Source: Escherichia phage vB_EcoS-885R8 | Strand: one strand, 5' to 3' | Sequence record: ON470602 | Length of the DNA stretch: 22,017 nucleotides | Shown here: positions 17,902 to 19,805 of the stretch, one piece after another | Layout of the letters: every line of letters begins with the position of its first letter | How positions within the stretch are numbered: the stretch's first letter is position 1 | Notes under the pieces: generated by a model | Database searches by the model: none | The model's input: only the letters and a program-made list of their open reading frames with translations | Told to the model about the DNA's origin: nothing | Program-made: the position numbers and the translations under genes

Positions 17902-18153
17902 TTAGTCCTGATTTTTATCCACCCTGAGTAGTTCGCGCAGAGCAAAGGCATCCCCTTTTCTGGCAAGCTTAAACAATGCCGCTCGTAACTCGGCTTCACC
18001 TTTCGCTCTGCCCTTACGGATGGCCGCATAAAAATCTGTCATTGCTTCCCGATTTTCTTTCAGTCGGTTCAGATCAACATCCAGAACGTCAGCGATTTGT
18101 TGTGCAGTCATCCGGCACGCTGCCAGAGACTCGACTTTCGAATACGGAATCAT
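17902..18153 (-). CDS. small hypothetical protein, probable HTH DNA-binding (start may be the internal Met at 18111)
   Basis: 83-aa ORF directly 5' of terS; segment MTAQQIADVLDVDLNRLKENREAM looks HTH-like. Confidence 0.45.
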   Translation of the reverse strand: MIPYSKVESLAACRMTAQQIADVLDVDLNRLKENREAMTDFYAAIRKGRAKGEAELRAALFKLARKGDAFALRELLRVDKNQD

Positions 18154-19021
18154 TTGTCACCCCCATTGATATGCAGGGTGTCTTCTTCCTGTATTTTTCG
18201 TGAAGGATTTTTACTGCAGCGTTGTTCCAGGTGACCTGATGGTGAATGCGTTTATGGCTGGCACCCATCAGTGAGATTTTTACGCACGACGGCGCATACA
18301 TGACGGAGTAAAAACTTTTAACGTAGGTTCCGGAATCCAGATACAGCTCGGTCATTCCGCCGCTGTTTTTCTGCGTCTGTTTCTGCCCTAACTGGACAGC
18401 ACCGATCGTCATAAACAATTCACCACAGCGACCGAGATTCGTGTACGTATTCACATCCTCGTTAATGCGCCCCATGAATGAGAACGGTCGATCAACCGAA
18501 CAGATAAAGCTGTTCATTGCCTTGCGTTTCACCCACGAAGCATGGCCGCCATTGTCACCAAGAAAATCCCCGCCCTGCGACATAGCGATGGAAAGAGCAG
18601 GTATTGATTCGTAGTACGCCAGCATTTCAGAAAGGATCGCATCCAGTTTCCTTATCGGAAAATAGGCCTGGTCATAGTTGCGATCCACCCGAAACTGGAA
18701 CTCGTGATAATCATCATCGAGCTGAATGAAGTATTTACACCCGACCAGTTTTGCCAGGTCGAAACAGGCATTACGGGCGTAAAAAATTGAGCGGCGGTCA
18801 CAGAAATTATCGGCTTCGTCAAAACGACTGGCGATATCGGCTTTGGAAAACACCAGCACCTGTTCACCAAATTCAGCCATGTACTGATTCCGTGTCTTAT
18901 CTTCATCATCAACAACGATAAAAATTTTCCCGGTATAGCCAGCACGACGCAACGTCCGGTAAGTCAGAACTTTGTCCGGTCGCCCGTGAGTCAGAATAAA
19001 GGCGCAAAAATCATCACGCAT
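18089..19021 (-). CDS. hypothetical protein, possible GT-A-fold nucleotide-sugar transferase-like (DxD-type motifs)
   Basis: ATG at 19021 preceded by AGGAGG and overlapping the ParB-like stop; motifs CAFILTHGRP, KIFIVVDDEDK and YFIQLDDDYHEF; no methyltransferase or PP-loop motifs found. Confidence 0.5.
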   Translation of the reverse strand: MRDDFCAFILTHGRPDKVLTYRTLRRAGYTGKIFIVVDDEDKTRNQYMAEFGEQVLVFSKADIASRFDEADNFCDRRSIFYARNACFDLAKLVGCKYFIQLDDDYHEFQFRVDRNYDQAYFPIRKLDAILSEMLAYYESIPALSIAMSQGGDFLGDNGGHASWVKRKAMNSFICSVDRPFSFMGRINEDVNTYTNLGRCGELFMTIGAVQLGQKQTQKNSGGMTELYLDSGTYVKSFYSVMYAPSCVKISLMGASHKRIHHQVTWNNAAVKILHEKYRKKTPCISMGVTNDSVFESRVSGSVPDDCTTNR

Positions 19022-19805
19022 ATTCCTCCTCCTCACCACCATGCATGATCTCCACCATGCGCTGCGTCATCCGGACAAATCCATTTTCAATAGCCTGCTG
19101 ATAATCAATGATCACCAGCGCCGACTCCTCGAAAAAACACTGAATTTCAGAGGGGGCGTGAGCGTAATAGTCCGCAATTCTGCTGAAATTAAACACCGTG
19201 TGACGTTCTGCCGCACACAGGAGGAATTTCTCAATATCAGGCTCAAGGGACGCCGAACGTATCCGGCTGATCAGCTCCTGAGTTTTCGTATCGTCGTACA
19301 GTTCACTGATATCCGGTTTACCGCCCGACGGCTCATAAACAGGCGTATCAATTTTCGTCGTATACGGCTCCTCCTCATTTCCTGTACCGGGCAAAACATC
19401 CGTCAACAGTTCATCAATTTCTGTCGGGATGAAGCCTGTCAGGGAGACATCAAAATCAGCATTGATTAGGTCCGACAGCTCCATCCGCAACAGATCTTCA
19501 TCCCAGCCAGCATTCATCGGCAGGCGATTATCTGCCAGGCGGTACGCCTTTTTCTGCTCATCCGTCAGGCCAGACAGAACAATGACCGGAACAGAATCCA
19601 TTTTGAGCATTTCAGCCGCCATAACACGACCGTGACCCGCAATAATTTCGCCCTTTTCGTCAATCAGCACCGGATTAGTCCAGCCGAATTGCTTAATACT
19701 TTCTACCAGTTGTGCCACCTGCTCAGGGCTGTGCGTCCTGGCGTTGTGCGCATACGGTGACAATTCTTGTAATGGGCGATAGACTATCTTTAATTTCTCG
19801 CTCAT
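19014..19805 (-). CDS. ParB/Srx-like nuclease-domain protein
   Basis: N-terminal ParB-type signature (...NARTHSPEQVAQLVESIKQFGWTNPVLIDEKGEIIAGHGRVMAA...); acidic C-terminus; first gene after the trkG terminator. Confidence 0.75.
   Translation of the reverse strand: MSEKLKIVYRPLQELSPYAHNARTHSPEQVAQLVESIKQFGWTNPVLIDEKGEIIAGHGRVMAAEMLKMDSVPVIVLSGLTDEQKKAYRLADNRLPMNAGWDEDLLRMELSDLINADFDVSLTGFIPTEIDELLTDVLPGTGNEEEPYTTKIDTPVYEPSGGKPDISELYDDTKTQELISRIRSASLEPDIEKFLLCAAERHTVFNFSRIADYYAHAPSEIQCFFEESALVIIDYQQAIENGFVRMTQRMVEIMHGGEEEEYA

What the first reader, a model, noticed from the sequence alone, without database searches (positions are those of the whole stretch)
18089..19805. Translationally coupled ParB/Srx-domain and GT-A-like gene pair between the trkG moron and the packaging genes: candidate uncharacterised DNA-modification or packaging-accessory module
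The 263-aa protein has a clear ParB N-terminal signature (IIAGHGRVMAA) and an acidic tail. Its stop overlaps the start of a 310-aa partner (AGGAGG-aat-ATG-cg-TGA). The partner has a hydrophobic strand followed by acidic clusters (CAFILTHGRP, KIFIVVDDEDK, YFIQLDDDYHEF) that resemble the nucleotide-binding and DxD motifs of GT-A glycosyltransferases. I could not find methyltransferase motifs (FxGxG, D/NPPY) or a PAPS-reductase PP-loop (SGGxDS), so it does not look like the familiar ParB-methylase or IbrB/IbrA-type pairs. Placement next to trkG, a known moron site, fits an accessory function such as DNA glycosylation or anti-restriction, but a role in pac/cos processing is equally possible.
Basis: partly seen in the sequence, partly recalled or inferred. 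Interest (0 to 1): 0.72.

Follow-up and report, generated by a model that had tools for sequence, protein, structure and literature searches.

The report
ParB-partnered DNA glycosyltransferase cassette beside terminase
This Rac-like E. coli prophage carries a tightly coupled gene pair, a ParB-like DNA-clamp protein and a sugar-transferring enzyme of a phage DNA-glycosylating family, that recurs as a fixed two-gene unit beside the DNA-packaging genes of viruses across bacteria and archaea, yet has no known way to make the modified base such enzymes normally need.

Summary
On the minus strand, a 263-aa ParB/Srx protein (19805..19014) overlaps a 310-aa partner (19021..18089) through ATGcgTGA.

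The partner is a GT-A glycosyltransferase of Pfam PF20691 (TAGT), the family of the T2/T6 second glucosyltransferase and of TET-associated phage DNA glycosyltransferases.

The new result is the context:
- The pair is an obligate cassette. 53 of 55 species-level loci found from TAGT have the ParB-like gene directly upstream. 78 of 78 assessable viral loci found from the ParB-like protein have TAGT downstream. One locus is an in-frame fusion.
- It lies just upstream of terminase in 55 of 61 assessable viral loci, next to at least four different terminase types.
- The strictly coupled part is a previously unnamed C-terminal domain (CTD) of the ParB-like protein. Where the ParB N-domain is missing, CTD plus TAGT lie between DNA polymerase and sliding-clamp genes.
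- No dioxygenase or hydroxymethylase is conserved nearby.

Best reading (about 0.55): a ParB-assisted, post-replicative DNA glycosylation module that acts late and is dispensable for growth. The acceptor on DNA is unknown.

It is a new variant of a known kind and is experimentally tractable.

The parts
19014..19805 (-). Gene for the 263-aa ParB/Srx-like partner protein (full-length form of K-12 ynaK)
   Evidence: ORF. Pfam ParB_N 28.9 bits; phrog_620 E 8.5e-91. RefSeq names it ynaK, 'ParB/Srx family N-terminal domain-containing protein'. dN/dS 0.11-0.16.
19401..19805 (-). ParB/Srx nucleotide-binding N-domain plus a short helical segment (residues 1-135)
19299..19400 (-). Predicted disordered linker (residues 136-169) carrying the conserved motif Y-T-x-K-I-x-x-P-x-Y-E-P
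   Evidence: pLDDT below 50. Y148 and P155 are nearly invariant and Y157 is invariant across 45 diverse partners from many phyla.
19014..19298 (-). C-terminal domain (CTD, residues 170-263) with an acidic tail; the part strictly coupled to TAGT; no Pfam family
   Evidence: Stand-alone CTD proteins of about 135 aa replace the full protein in L010, L117, L120, L132 and L140. R201, A211, Y214, E226 and D234 are invariant. No significant Pfam hit; only phrog_620 covers it.
18089..19021 (-). Gene for the 310-aa GT-A glycosyltransferase of the TAGT family (PF20691 / phrog_842)
18377..19021 (-). GT-A catalytic core (residues 1-215) with R14, D38/D41, D102-D103-D104 (DxD) and N187-E188-D189
   Evidence: These residues are invariant or nearly invariant in A2 and A3. 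They match the R...DDD...ED motif reported for phage GT-A DNA glycosyltransferases and JGT (bioRxiv 10.1101/2023.12.21.572611).
18218..18376 (-). Family-specific conserved C-terminal region (residues 216-268: TQ..GGMTE.Y..GTYVKSFY..PSCVK..R.HH..W), outside the Pfam model; candidate acceptor-binding region
   Evidence: G222, Y227, K235, P244, H260 and H261 are invariant, and T216, Q217, G231, T232, Y233, R258 and W265 are at least 90% conserved, across 74 diverse members. The Pfam match ends at residue 222. AF2 confidence is low for residues 219-245. The acceptor-binding role is inference.
18089..18217 (-). C-terminal tail (residues 269-310); its last ~22 residues extend beyond the ~288-aa relatives and overlap the next gene
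   Evidence: Most homologues are about 285-290 aa. pLDDT is below 50 for residues 286-310. The tail overlaps ORF 17902..18153.
19014..19034 (-). Translational-coupling junction: Shine-Dalgarno GAGGAGGAGG (19034-19025), TAGT ATG (19021-19019), ParB TGA (19016-19014)
   Evidence: Read directly from the sequence. Start/stop overlaps of 4-29 nt are also annotated in phi jlb1, HHTV-2, NTR1, the Porphyromonas phage and c5, and are seen in L003 and L005.
15522..18153 (-). Context: conserved downstream packaging genes (83-aa TerS-like ORF, 364-aa TerS, 436-aa T4-type TerL)
   Evidence: Pfam and PHROG hits. A TerL gene lies within 4 kb downstream in 55 of 61 assessable viral loci.
19833..19856 (-). Context: intrinsic terminator closing the trkG moron, just upstream of the ParB start
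   Evidence: 10-bp GC-rich stem followed by a T-run. trkG GC is 33-42% against 47-51% for the pair and the packaging genes.

Best explanation
The two genes encode a self-contained, two-component DNA glycosylation module that acts late, on replicated phage DNA.

The 310-aa protein is an active GT-A glycosyltransferase that uses a nucleotide-activated sugar.

The 263-aa protein is its targeting or activating subunit:
- Its C-terminal domain, with the conserved Y..K....P.YEP linker, binds the transferase.
- Its ParB/Srx N-domain, an NTP-binding clamp-type module, engages double-stranded DNA. This keeps the enzyme on DNA or opens the DNA to it, as ParB176 does for its thymine dioxygenase.

Because the pair is expressed as the first genes of the packaging/morphogenesis operon, DNA about to be packaged would be decorated with sugar. 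The likely purpose is to blunt host nucleases or other DNA-sensing defences in the next host.

Shown here: fold and family of both proteins, intact catalytic motifs, purifying selection, obligate pairing, one gene fusion, the terminase or replisome context, lack of a conserved hydroxymethylase, and dispensability.

Inferred: that DNA is the acceptor, that the CTD binds TAGT, that the N-domain loads on DNA, and the anti-defence purpose. The acceptor atom on DNA is unknown.
For: 1. Family. PF20691 at 121 bits and phrog_842 at E 1e-103. T6 ggt, a biochemically defined DNA glucosyltransferase, belongs to the same Pfam and PHROG families (PMC13216743). TET-associated GT-A enzymes of this kind transfer sugars to DNA (10.1101/2023.12.21.572611). 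The fold is GT-A, and R14, D102-D104 and E188-D189 are conserved.

2. Obligate pairing. 53 of 55 species-level loci from many phyla have the ParB-like gene directly upstream. 78 of 78 assessable viral loci seeded from the ParB-like protein have TAGT downstream. L174 is an in-frame ParB-CTD-TAGT fusion. Among 64 diverse loci, only these two gene clusters are universal.

3. Links to DNA.
- The N-domain is closest to the ParB domains fused to phage DNA methyltransferases.
- Its layout (nucleotide-binding domain, short helices, unstructured linker, CTD, no obvious DNA-binding domain) matches that described for ParB176, which activates a DNA dioxygenase on dsDNA (PMC13229309).
- The cassette combines with at least four different terminase types and with hosts from Gram-negative, Gram-positive, CPR and archaeal lineages, so the common substrate is DNA or the partner itself.
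- CTD-only variants lie between DNA polymerase A and beta-clamp genes, or beside primase and helicase genes.

4. Glycan chemistry. There are fusions to a second TAGT, to class I SAM methyltransferases, to a sulfotransferase and to a P-loop domain. A histidine-phosphatase plus cytidylyltransferase gene is inserted between ParB and TAGT in L181, and homologous ~320-aa inserts occupy the same position in L200, L206, L230 and L231.

5. Accessory but selected. dN/dS is 0.06-0.16. In-frame deletions exist in the viable phages Ld25A and LL-Ku.
Against: - No source of 5-hydroxymethyl pyrimidine, the acceptor of every characterised DNA glycosyltransferase, is present. None is annotated in the stretch of the Rac-like prophage examined in SE11, from the tail genes to recE. 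None was found in the complete 31.8-kb c5 genome. None appears among the conserved neighbours.
- Direct glycosylation of canonical DNA has no precedent (my own knowledge).
- The only eukaryotic TAGT-domain protein studied, GREB1, is reported to glycosylate a protein (PMC7968844 abstract).
- The partner's invariant tyrosine in a disordered linker would also suit a protein acceptor.
- The P-motif arginine of the ParB domain is lost in a few cassettes (L011, L103, L138), and NTP-site mutations did not abolish ParB176 function, so the clamp mechanism is uncertain.
- Restriction maps were made long ago for some phages of these groups (my own knowledge). That argues against dense, genome-wide modification.
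- No physical interaction or activity was tested here.
Confidence: 0.55

Rival explanations
1. Protein glycosylation. TAGT glycosylates its own partner, for example the invariant tyrosine of the P-x-Y-E-P linker in a glycogenin-like way, or another phage protein. The glycoprotein, not DNA, is then the functional product, for example a packaged or DNA-bound decoy.
For: Y157 is invariant, and Y148 and P155 are nearly invariant, in a predicted disordered segment. No hydroxymethyl-base source exists. GREB1's TAGT domain is reported to modify a protein. Tandem glycosyltransferases, methyltransferase and sulfotransferase fusions fit glycan building on any acceptor. GT-A enzymes that act on proteins, including glycogenin, are among the structural neighbours.
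Against: All characterised phage members of the family act on DNA. A virion-protein acceptor is unlikely because the capsid, portal and terminase modules next to the cassette are unrelated. The polymerase and clamp context of the CTD-only variants, and the methyltransferase-type ParB domain, point to DNA.
Confidence: 0.15
2. Packaging accessory. The ParB-like protein recognises or nicks the pac/cos region and works with the terminase. The glycosyltransferase marks or regulates that step.
For: The pair lies immediately upstream of TerS/TerL in 55 of 61 assessable viral loci. It sits directly after the cos site in c5. Nocardia phage NTR1 has no annotated TerS between TAGT and TerL.
Against: The cassette is deleted in frame in the viable phages Ld25A and LL-Ku, which keep the same terminase. 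It pairs with non-homologous terminase families. CTD-only versions lie in replication modules, not packaging modules. No convincing parS-like repeat was found next to the genes.
Confidence: 0.08
3. The enzyme acts on hydroxymethylated or already glycosylated DNA supplied in trans. For example, the prophage enzyme over-glycosylates invading T-even DNA as a defence, or it needs enzymes encoded elsewhere.
For: The characterised relative T6 ggt adds sugar to an existing glucosyl-5hmC. The NEB preprint raises antiviral hypermodification by prophage glycosyltransferases as a possibility.
Against: The cassette also occurs in virulent phages and in an archaeal virus. It lies in the late operon, which I expect to be silent in lysogens (my own knowledge). 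No PADLOC defence model matches TAGT. T-even-type 5hmC phages are not expected for most of the host lineages that carry the cassette (expectation is my own knowledge).
Confidence: 0.07
4. Host-envelope glycan modification for superinfection exclusion, like Gtr O-antigen conversion or TarP wall-teichoic-acid glycosylation.
Against: Neither protein gave any Pfam or NCBIfam hit to a membrane or secretion domain. The same cassette serves hosts with unrelated envelopes, including archaea and CPR bacteria. The obligate ParB partner and the replisome or terminase contexts are unexplained by this model.
Confidence: 0.03

Closest known systems
T2/T6 beta-glucosyl-HMC-alpha-glucosyltransferase (ggt) and the Pfam family PF20691 (TAGT)
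   Same: Same Pfam family and same PHROG (phrog_842). The fold is GT-A (shown here for the window protein; reported for T6 TAGT in PMC13216743). Both are phage-encoded, and ggt transfers its sugar onto DNA.
   Different: No pairwise similarity is detectable (BLASTP E 1; hhalign probability 0.1). T6 ggt has no ParB partner, lies beside dCMP hydroxymethylase and extends an existing glucose on 5hmC. The window protein has an extra conserved C-terminal region and no 5hmC pathway. The RefSeq/PHROG label 'beta-glucosyl-HMC-alpha-glucosyltransferase' on phages such as c5 and HHTV-2 is an over-transfer.
TET/5mYOX-associated GT-A DNA glycosyltransferases of metavirome contigs (Burke et al. 2021, PMC8256090; bioRxiv 10.1101/2023.12.21.572611)
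   Same: GT-A fold, the R...DDD...ED motif, post-replicative action, and frequent neighbours ParB and terminase.
   Different: Those enzymes sit beside a C5-methyltransferase and/or a dioxygenase that makes 5hmC or 5hmU. Here none is present. That preprint set aside about 65% of GT contigs that lack such partners as 'less likely' to be DNA modifiers.
ParB-dependent thymine dioxygenase pair 5mYOX176/ParB176 (PMC13229309)
   Same: A ParB-like protein with a nucleotide-binding domain, a short helical segment, an unstructured linker and a CTD, with no obvious DNA-binding domain. It is encoded next to a cognate DNA-modifying enzyme and is needed for action on dsDNA (compared).
   Different: The client enzyme here is a glycosyltransferase, not a dioxygenase. 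Homology of the CTDs could not be tested because the sequences are not held. Here the CTD can exist without the ParB domain.
Phage ParB-domain/DNA methyltransferase fusion proteins (phrog_498; PADLOC MTase_II)
   Same: The N-terminal 140 residues match these ParB domains best (E 1.2e-50 and 2.2e-38). They also lie near terminase genes in prophages (my own knowledge).
   Different: There is no methyltransferase domain. The enzyme is a separate, translationally coupled polypeptide of a different chemistry.
Canonical partition ParB (ParABS) and Noc
   Same: ParB/Srx fold; the GxxR P-motif and the D/E-N box are retained.
   Different: Below the TIGR00180 cut-off (38.5 against 58.45 bits). No HTH domain was detected, and there is no parA gene and no recognisable parS.
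T4 alpha-glucosyltransferase coupled to the replisome
   Same: An analogy only, for the CTD-only variants: a DNA glycosyltransferase genetically or physically linked to polymerase and sliding clamp.
   Different: T4 alpha-GT has a GT-B fold, acts on 5hmC and has no CTD-type partner.

Membership tests
PF20691 TAGT (TET-associated glycosyltransferase) / phrog_842 | Scores above the curated Pfam gathering threshold | tested here: met
   121.1 bits against 27.5, residues 8-222 on model positions 4-205 of 205. phrog_842 E 1.1e-103.
PF20691 TAGT (TET-associated glycosyltransferase) / phrog_842 | GT-A fold with the R...DDD...ED catalytic signature | tested here: met
PF20691 TAGT (TET-associated glycosyltransferase) / phrog_842 | Genomic association with a TET/JBP dioxygenase, or with a hydroxymethylase plus a primary alpha/beta-GT | tested here: not met
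   None in the SE11 prophage stretch examined or in the complete c5 genome. None among the gene clusters shared by 64 diverse loci.
PF20691 TAGT (TET-associated glycosyltransferase) / phrog_842 | Transfers a sugar to DNA | not testable with these tools
   Needs biochemistry or LC-MS of DNA.
T2/T6 ggt orthologue (beta-glucosyl-HMC-alpha-glucosyltransferase) | Direct sequence similarity to T6 ggt and a 5hmC pathway context (gene 42, alpha-GT) | tested here: not met
   BLASTP E 1.0 and hhalign probability 0.1. No dCMP hydroxymethylase or alpha-GT in the prophage stretch examined.
ParB/Srx (ParB-CTPase fold) superfamily | ParB_N domain and fold | tested here: met
ParB/Srx (ParB-CTPase fold) superfamily | Nucleotide-binding residues (GxxR P-motif; D/E-N box) | tested here: met
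   G57, G59, R60, D92 and N93 are invariant, and H58 nearly so, in 33 close homologues. N93 is at least 90% conserved across phyla, and the arginine is lost in only a few cassettes. Binding itself was not tested.
Canonical partition ParB (ParABS) | HTH DNA-binding domain, ParA partner, parS site, TIGR00180 equivalog score | tested here: not met
   TIGR00180 at 38.5 bits against a cut-off of 58.45. No parA gene in the prophage stretch examined. No HTH domain detected. No parS-like repeat found.
ParB-type activators of phage DNA-modifying enzymes (ParB176 class, PMC13229309) | Nucleotide-binding domain, short helices, unstructured linker and CTD, without a DNA-binding domain, encoded next to the client enzyme | tested here: met
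   AF2: N-domain 1-95, helices 103-134, disordered 136-169, helical CTD 170-255, compared with the description. Adjacency is 53 of 55 and 78 of 78.
ParB-type activators of phage DNA-modifying enzymes (ParB176 class, PMC13229309) | Sequence homology of the CTD to ParB176, and activation of the client on dsDNA | not tested
Activation needs an experiment.
ParB-methyltransferase and IbrB/IbrA-type pairs | A SAM methyltransferase or PAPS-reductase domain in the same or the adjacent protein | tested here: not met
   Pfam and NCBIfam show only ParB_N and TAGT. The PADLOC MTase_II hit covers only the ParB part, residues 10-144.

The most novel reading that the evidence does not exclude
The ParB(CTD)-TAGT cassette glycosylates canonical, unmodified DNA directly, with no hydroxymethyl-pyrimidine intermediate. 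It would target an exocyclic amine, a ring nitrogen or oxygen, or the backbone. The ParB clamp, or in other viruses the replisome clamp, would restrict the mark to viral DNA. That would be a new class of DNA modification carried by a prophage found in roughly a sixth to a third of complete E. coli genomes and by viruses of many bacterial phyla and of archaea.
Probability: 0.35. Interest if true: 0.88.

Novelty: new variant of a known kind. Interest (0 to 1): 0.68.

Why it matters
Recent work on phage DNA glycosylation leaves two loose ends. First, many TAGT glycosyltransferases stand alone, without the enzymes that make their usual acceptor: 288 of 753 phage genomes (PMC13216743) and about 65% of mined GT contigs (10.1101/2023.12.21.572611). 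Second, ParB-like proteins can switch on DNA-modifying enzymes (PMC13229309).

This locus ties the two together. At least the subfamily studied here is not really solitary. It always comes with a ParB-type partner whose unnamed C-terminal domain is the constant element.

If the pair modifies DNA without a hydroxymethyl precursor, that would be new nucleic-acid chemistry. It would also be a new anti-defence strategy in very common temperate phages of E. coli, Salmonella, Klebsiella, gut Bacteroidales and Firmicutes.

It is directly testable. The genes are small, E. coli is the native host, and nature provides deletion controls (c5 against Ld25A and LL-Ku).

It also corrects a widespread annotation: 'beta-glucosyl-HMC-alpha-glucosyltransferase' and 'partition protein' on phages that have neither HMC nor partition systems.

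Tried and rejected
- **Methyltransferase, PAPS-reductase or defence-system identity.** Pfam, NCBIfam and PADLOC gave nothing beyond ParB_N and TAGT.
- **Canonical partition ParB.** Below the TIGR00180 cut-off, with no ParA.
- **Direct orthology to T6 ggt.** No pairwise or profile similarity, although both fall in PF20691 and phrog_842.
- **A hidden dioxygenase or hydroxymethylase.** I looked in the SE11 prophage annotation, in all larger hypothetical ORFs of phage c5 and in the clusters of 1353 neighbour genes. Only a C5-methyltransferase turned up, in 5 loci. Rare or very divergent enzymes in single loci would be missed.
- **ParB-TAGT fusions among the 150 family representatives.** None; those fusions were to methyltransferase, sulfotransferase, a second TAGT or a P-loop domain. 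One true ParB-CTD-TAGT fusion was found later, in L174.
- **A parS or pac site near the genes.** Only weak two-copy repeats near the pair. The one clear repeat cluster lies inside terS.
- **Solved structures by sequence for TAGT.** None.
- **Unavailable resources.** The afdb50 fold search was not installed. Iyer et al. 2013 (NAR, gkt573) is not held. The supplements with the ParB176 sequences are not held.
- **Literature for a described ParB-glycosyltransferase system or for HHTV-2 DNA modification.** Nothing specific.
- **dN/dS on distant orthologues.** dS is saturated, so closer pairs were used.
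Full report
**1. What is in the window**

The finding lies on the minus strand of a Rac-like lambdoid prophage of E. coli.
- The gene order, in the direction of transcription, is: Rz/Rz1, trkG (19943..21418), a 263-aa ParB/Srx protein (19805..19014), a 310-aa protein (19021..18089), an 83-aa ORF (17902..18153), TerS (16804..17898), TerL (15522..16832), then portal, head and tail genes.
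- The 2.2-kb stretch is 100% identical in many E. coli chromosomes and in induced-prophage records. It matches in 1619 of 5426 complete E. coli genomes, and 867 of them hold at least 80% of it.
- RefSeq calls the first gene ynaK. In K-12 only its first 87 codons survive, joined to ydaY by the deletion that crippled Rac.
The junction reads GAGGAGGAGGaatATGcgTGA, an 8-nt start/stop overlap.

**2. Identity of the two proteins**

The 310-aa protein is a TAGT glycosyltransferase.
- It matches Pfam PF20691 (TAGT, TET-associated glycosyltransferase) at 121 bits against a cut-off of 27.5, and phrog_842 at E 1e-103.
- Against predicted viral structures, the best matches are TET-associated glycosyltransferase proteins, and a T-even-type beta-glucosyl-HMC-alpha-glucosyltransferase appears at E 1e-7.
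- R14, D41, D102-D103-D104, Q149/G151/D152, R166/K167 and N187/D189 are conserved across 74 members that share 26-54% identity. This is the R...DDD...ED signature described for phage GT-A DNA glycosyltransferases and trypanosome JGT.
- A further block at residues 216-268 lies outside the Pfam model but is equally conserved.
- The family is large: 1324 clusters at 50% identity at E up to 0.001.

The 263-aa protein has three parts.
- Residues 136-169 are a predicted disordered linker.
- Residues 170-255 are a helical C-terminal domain (CTD), followed by an acidic tail.
- It is not a partition ParB: it is below the TIGR00180 cut-off, with no detected HTH and no parA gene.
- Its N-domain is closest to the ParB domains fused to phage DNA methyltransferases (phrog_498 E 1e-50; PADLOC MTase_II E 2e-38).

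**3. The pair is an obligate, mobile two-gene cassette**

- Starting from TAGT, a scan of one genome per species gave 55 loci. They come from Proteobacteria, Bacteroidota, Firmicutes, Chlorobiota, Desulfobacterota, Acidobacteriota, Actinobacteriota, Verrucomicrobiota, CPR bacteria and an archaeon, at 42-59% identity outside the Enterobacterales.
- In 53 of the 55, an ORF matching the ParB-like profile ends at or overlaps the TAGT start on the same strand. The other two are a contig-edge case and a locus where only part of TAGT was matched.
- Starting instead from the ParB-like protein, all 78 assessable viral contigs have TAGT downstream. L174 is an in-frame ParB-CTD-TAGT fusion of 522 aa.
- Six of these contigs have about 0.8-0.95 kb between the two genes. 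In L181 the inserted ORF is a 322-aa histidine-phosphatase plus cytidylyltransferase fusion (Pfam). Homologous ORFs of about 320 aa occupy the same position in L200, L206, L230 and L231; no ORF was recovered for L193. This is plausibly a donor-synthesis enzyme.
- The same arrangement, with 4-29-nt overlaps, is annotated in Lactobacillus phages phi jlb1 and c5, Nocardia phage NTR1, a Porphyromonas phage and the haloarchaeal virus HHTV-2.
- After clustering 1353 neighbour genes from 64 diverse loci, only these two families are universal (58 loci each). The next most common are terminase large subunits of different types (19 and 15 loci), portals, SSB and helicases.

**4. Context**

- In 55 of 61 assessable viral loci, a TerL gene lies within 4 kb downstream. 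The terminases seen are T4-type, T7-type, lambda GpA-type and HK97-type. In c5 the pair follows the cos site directly.
- In the window, trkG is a separate low-GC moron (33-42% GC) with its own terminator at 19856-19833. The pair has the GC content of the late genes. The relevant neighbour is therefore the terminase, not the moron.
- The ParB N-domain is optional. In L010 (a Vibrio jumbo phage), L117, L120, L132 and L140, the upstream gene encodes only the linker motif plus CTD, about 135 aa.
- In those cases the cassette sits in replication modules: DNA polymerase A - (TAGT) - CTD - TAGT - beta sliding clamp in L117 and L120; TAGT - CTD - TAGT - beta clamp in L140; or beside primase, exonuclease and helicase genes in L010.
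- The CTD, which has no Pfam family, is therefore the constant partner of TAGT. The DNA-tracking element appears to be either the fused ParB domain or, by inference, the replisome clamp.

**5. What is missing**

- No TET/JBP dioxygenase, thymidylate-synthase-like hydroxymethylase or primary alpha/beta-GT is annotated in the SE11 prophage stretch examined, from the tail genes to recE.
- None was found in the complete c5 genome, including a Pfam scan of its larger hypothetical ORFs.
- None appears among the shared neighbour clusters. A C5-methyltransferase occurs in only 5 loci.
- T6 ggt, the one biochemically defined relative, belongs to the same Pfam and PHROG families but shows no pairwise similarity. 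It also sits beside dCMP hydroxymethylase. The label 'beta-glucosyl-HMC-alpha-glucosyltransferase' on these phages is therefore not justified.

**6. Selection and dispensability**

- Both genes are under purifying selection: dN/dS 0.11-0.16 and 0.06-0.14, like TerS and TerL.
- TAGT is more conserved than its partner, and more conserved than the adjacent TerS, between enterobacterial prophages.
- Even so, the viable virulent phages Ld25A and LL-Ku, close relatives of c5, carry in-frame deletions that remove most of the cassette. The function is accessory, not core packaging.

**7. Mechanism proposed**

The evidence best fits a two-component DNA glycosylation module.
- TAGT is the catalyst.
- The CTD and linker of the partner bind it. 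This is supported by the obligate adjacency, the translational coupling and the fusion in L174.
- The ParB domain engages dsDNA and gives the enzyme access or residence time. ParB176, which has the same described domain layout, does this for a thymine dioxygenase on dsDNA (PMC13229309).
- Fusions of this TAGT subfamily to a second TAGT, to SAM methyltransferases and to a sulfotransferase, together with the inserted cytidylyltransferase gene, show that a tailored glycan is being built.
- The cassette travels between viruses with unrelated virion and terminase proteins and between hosts with unrelated envelopes. The acceptor must therefore be common to all of them: DNA, or the partner protein itself.
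- The methyltransferase-type ParB domain and the polymerase/clamp context favour DNA.
- The acceptor atom, the sugar, the density of modification and the biological pay-off (most likely anti-restriction or anti-defence) are all inferred. Direct glycosylation of canonical DNA would be unprecedented.

I put the DNA model at about 0.55. The rivals are protein (partner) glycosylation at 0.15, a packaging accessory at 0.08, action on hydroxymethylated DNA supplied in trans at 0.07, and envelope modification at 0.03.

**8. Relation to what is known, and novelty**

- Both protein families are catalogued.
- Recent papers note 'solitary' TAGT homologues (PMC13216743), GT contigs without 5mYOX or ThyS, and frequent co-occurrence of glycosyltransferases, ParB proteins and terminases around dioxygenases.
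- No paper retrieved by my searches of the held literature describes the following: that this TAGT subfamily is an obligate pair with a ParB-type protein; that the conserved coupling element is an unnamed CTD; that the cassette alternates between terminase-proximal (ParB-fused) and replisome-proximal (CTD-only) forms; or that it lacks any precursor-making enzyme.
- I therefore rate it a new variant of a known kind, with moderate-to-high interest.

Noticed in passing
window 19833-21418: trkG is a discrete low-GC moron (33-42% GC against 47-51% for its neighbours). A strong intrinsic terminator (10-bp stem, 19856-19833, minus strand) sits between its stop codon and the ParB start. Late transcription must read through this terminator to reach the cassette and the terminase genes.
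   Followed up: partly
window 17674-17773: A cluster of short repeats, TCTGCGCA followed by a T-run, spaced 12-36 nt apart, lies inside the 5' part of the terS gene. It encodes the AQK-rich low-complexity stretch of TerS. It could be a pac-type recognition array or only a coding repeat.
   Followed up: no
window 17902-18153 (RefSeq start gives 17902-18111): A small 69/83-aa ORF lies between TAGT and TerS. It matches part of a terminase-small-subunit PHROG (phrog_309, E 8e-23), and relatives recur downstream of TAGT in other enterobacterial and Veillonella loci. The 3' end of the E. coli TAGT gene overlaps it by 23-65 nt.
   Followed up: partly
window 16804-17898: TerS is unusually long (364 aa). 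Its N-terminus gives a weak hit to an IS66 TnpA-like HTH (NCBIfam E 4e-4), and its Terminase_2 match is stretched over residues 122-321. This suggests a composite small terminase.
   Followed up: no
L150 (E. coli K-12 MG1655, 1425377-1425980): K-12 ynaK (87 aa) is only the 5' remnant of the 263-aa gene. It abuts ydaY, which in intact prophages lies between the tail-tube and tape-measure genes. A single deletion therefore removed the rest of the cassette, the terminase, head genes and part of the tail genes.
   Followed up: yes
L151 (phage Ld25A 90-515) and L152 (phage LL-Ku 90-938): Natural in-frame deletions fuse the start of the ParB-like gene to the end or middle of TAGT in viable virulent Lactobacillus delbrueckii phages. 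These are ready-made negative controls for phage c5.
   Followed up: yes
L174 5983-7551: A single 522-aa ORF in an IMG/VR contig is an in-frame fusion of ParB, CTD and TAGT. The acidic tail and stop codon are lost and the TAGT methionine is retained.
   Followed up: partly
L181 1419-2387; homologous ORFs in L200, L206, L230, L231 (L193 has a similar gap but no ORF was recovered): A gene of about 320 aa is inserted between the ParB-like gene and TAGT. In L181 it encodes a histidine-phosphatase plus cytidylyltransferase-like fusion (Pfam). It probably makes an activated (CDP- or NDP-linked) donor for the transferase.
   Followed up: partly
P0271, P0306, P0319 (residues 1-180): TAGT proteins with an N-terminal P-loop (GxxxxGKS) domain that has no clear family (AAA_18, E 0.04). 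It could be a kinase acting on the sugar or on DNA, reminiscent of the 5-hmdU DNA kinases.
   Followed up: no
L137 2992-4746 and four other Bacteroidales loci: A C5-cytosine DNA methyltransferase lies about 7 kb upstream of the cassette in 5 of 64 diverse loci. It is not conserved elsewhere, so it is not a required partner.
   Followed up: partly
RefSeq phage records NC_019449, NC_021340, NC_024206 and others: The TAGT genes are annotated 'beta-glucosyl-HMC-alpha-glucosyltransferase' and the partners 'ParB-like partition protein/nuclease'. In the records checked no HMC pathway gene is annotated (whole genome for c5, flanking ~15 kb for the others), and no partition gene is annotated near the cassette. 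These look like annotation over-transfers from PHROG names.
   Followed up: yes
L112 (Virgibacillus sp. plasmid pCBA3643-01, 50 kb): The cassette followed by terminase genes lies on a 50-kb plasmid record, which is possibly a phage-plasmid. In E. coli, 16 of the 1639 matching places are on plasmids.
   Followed up: no
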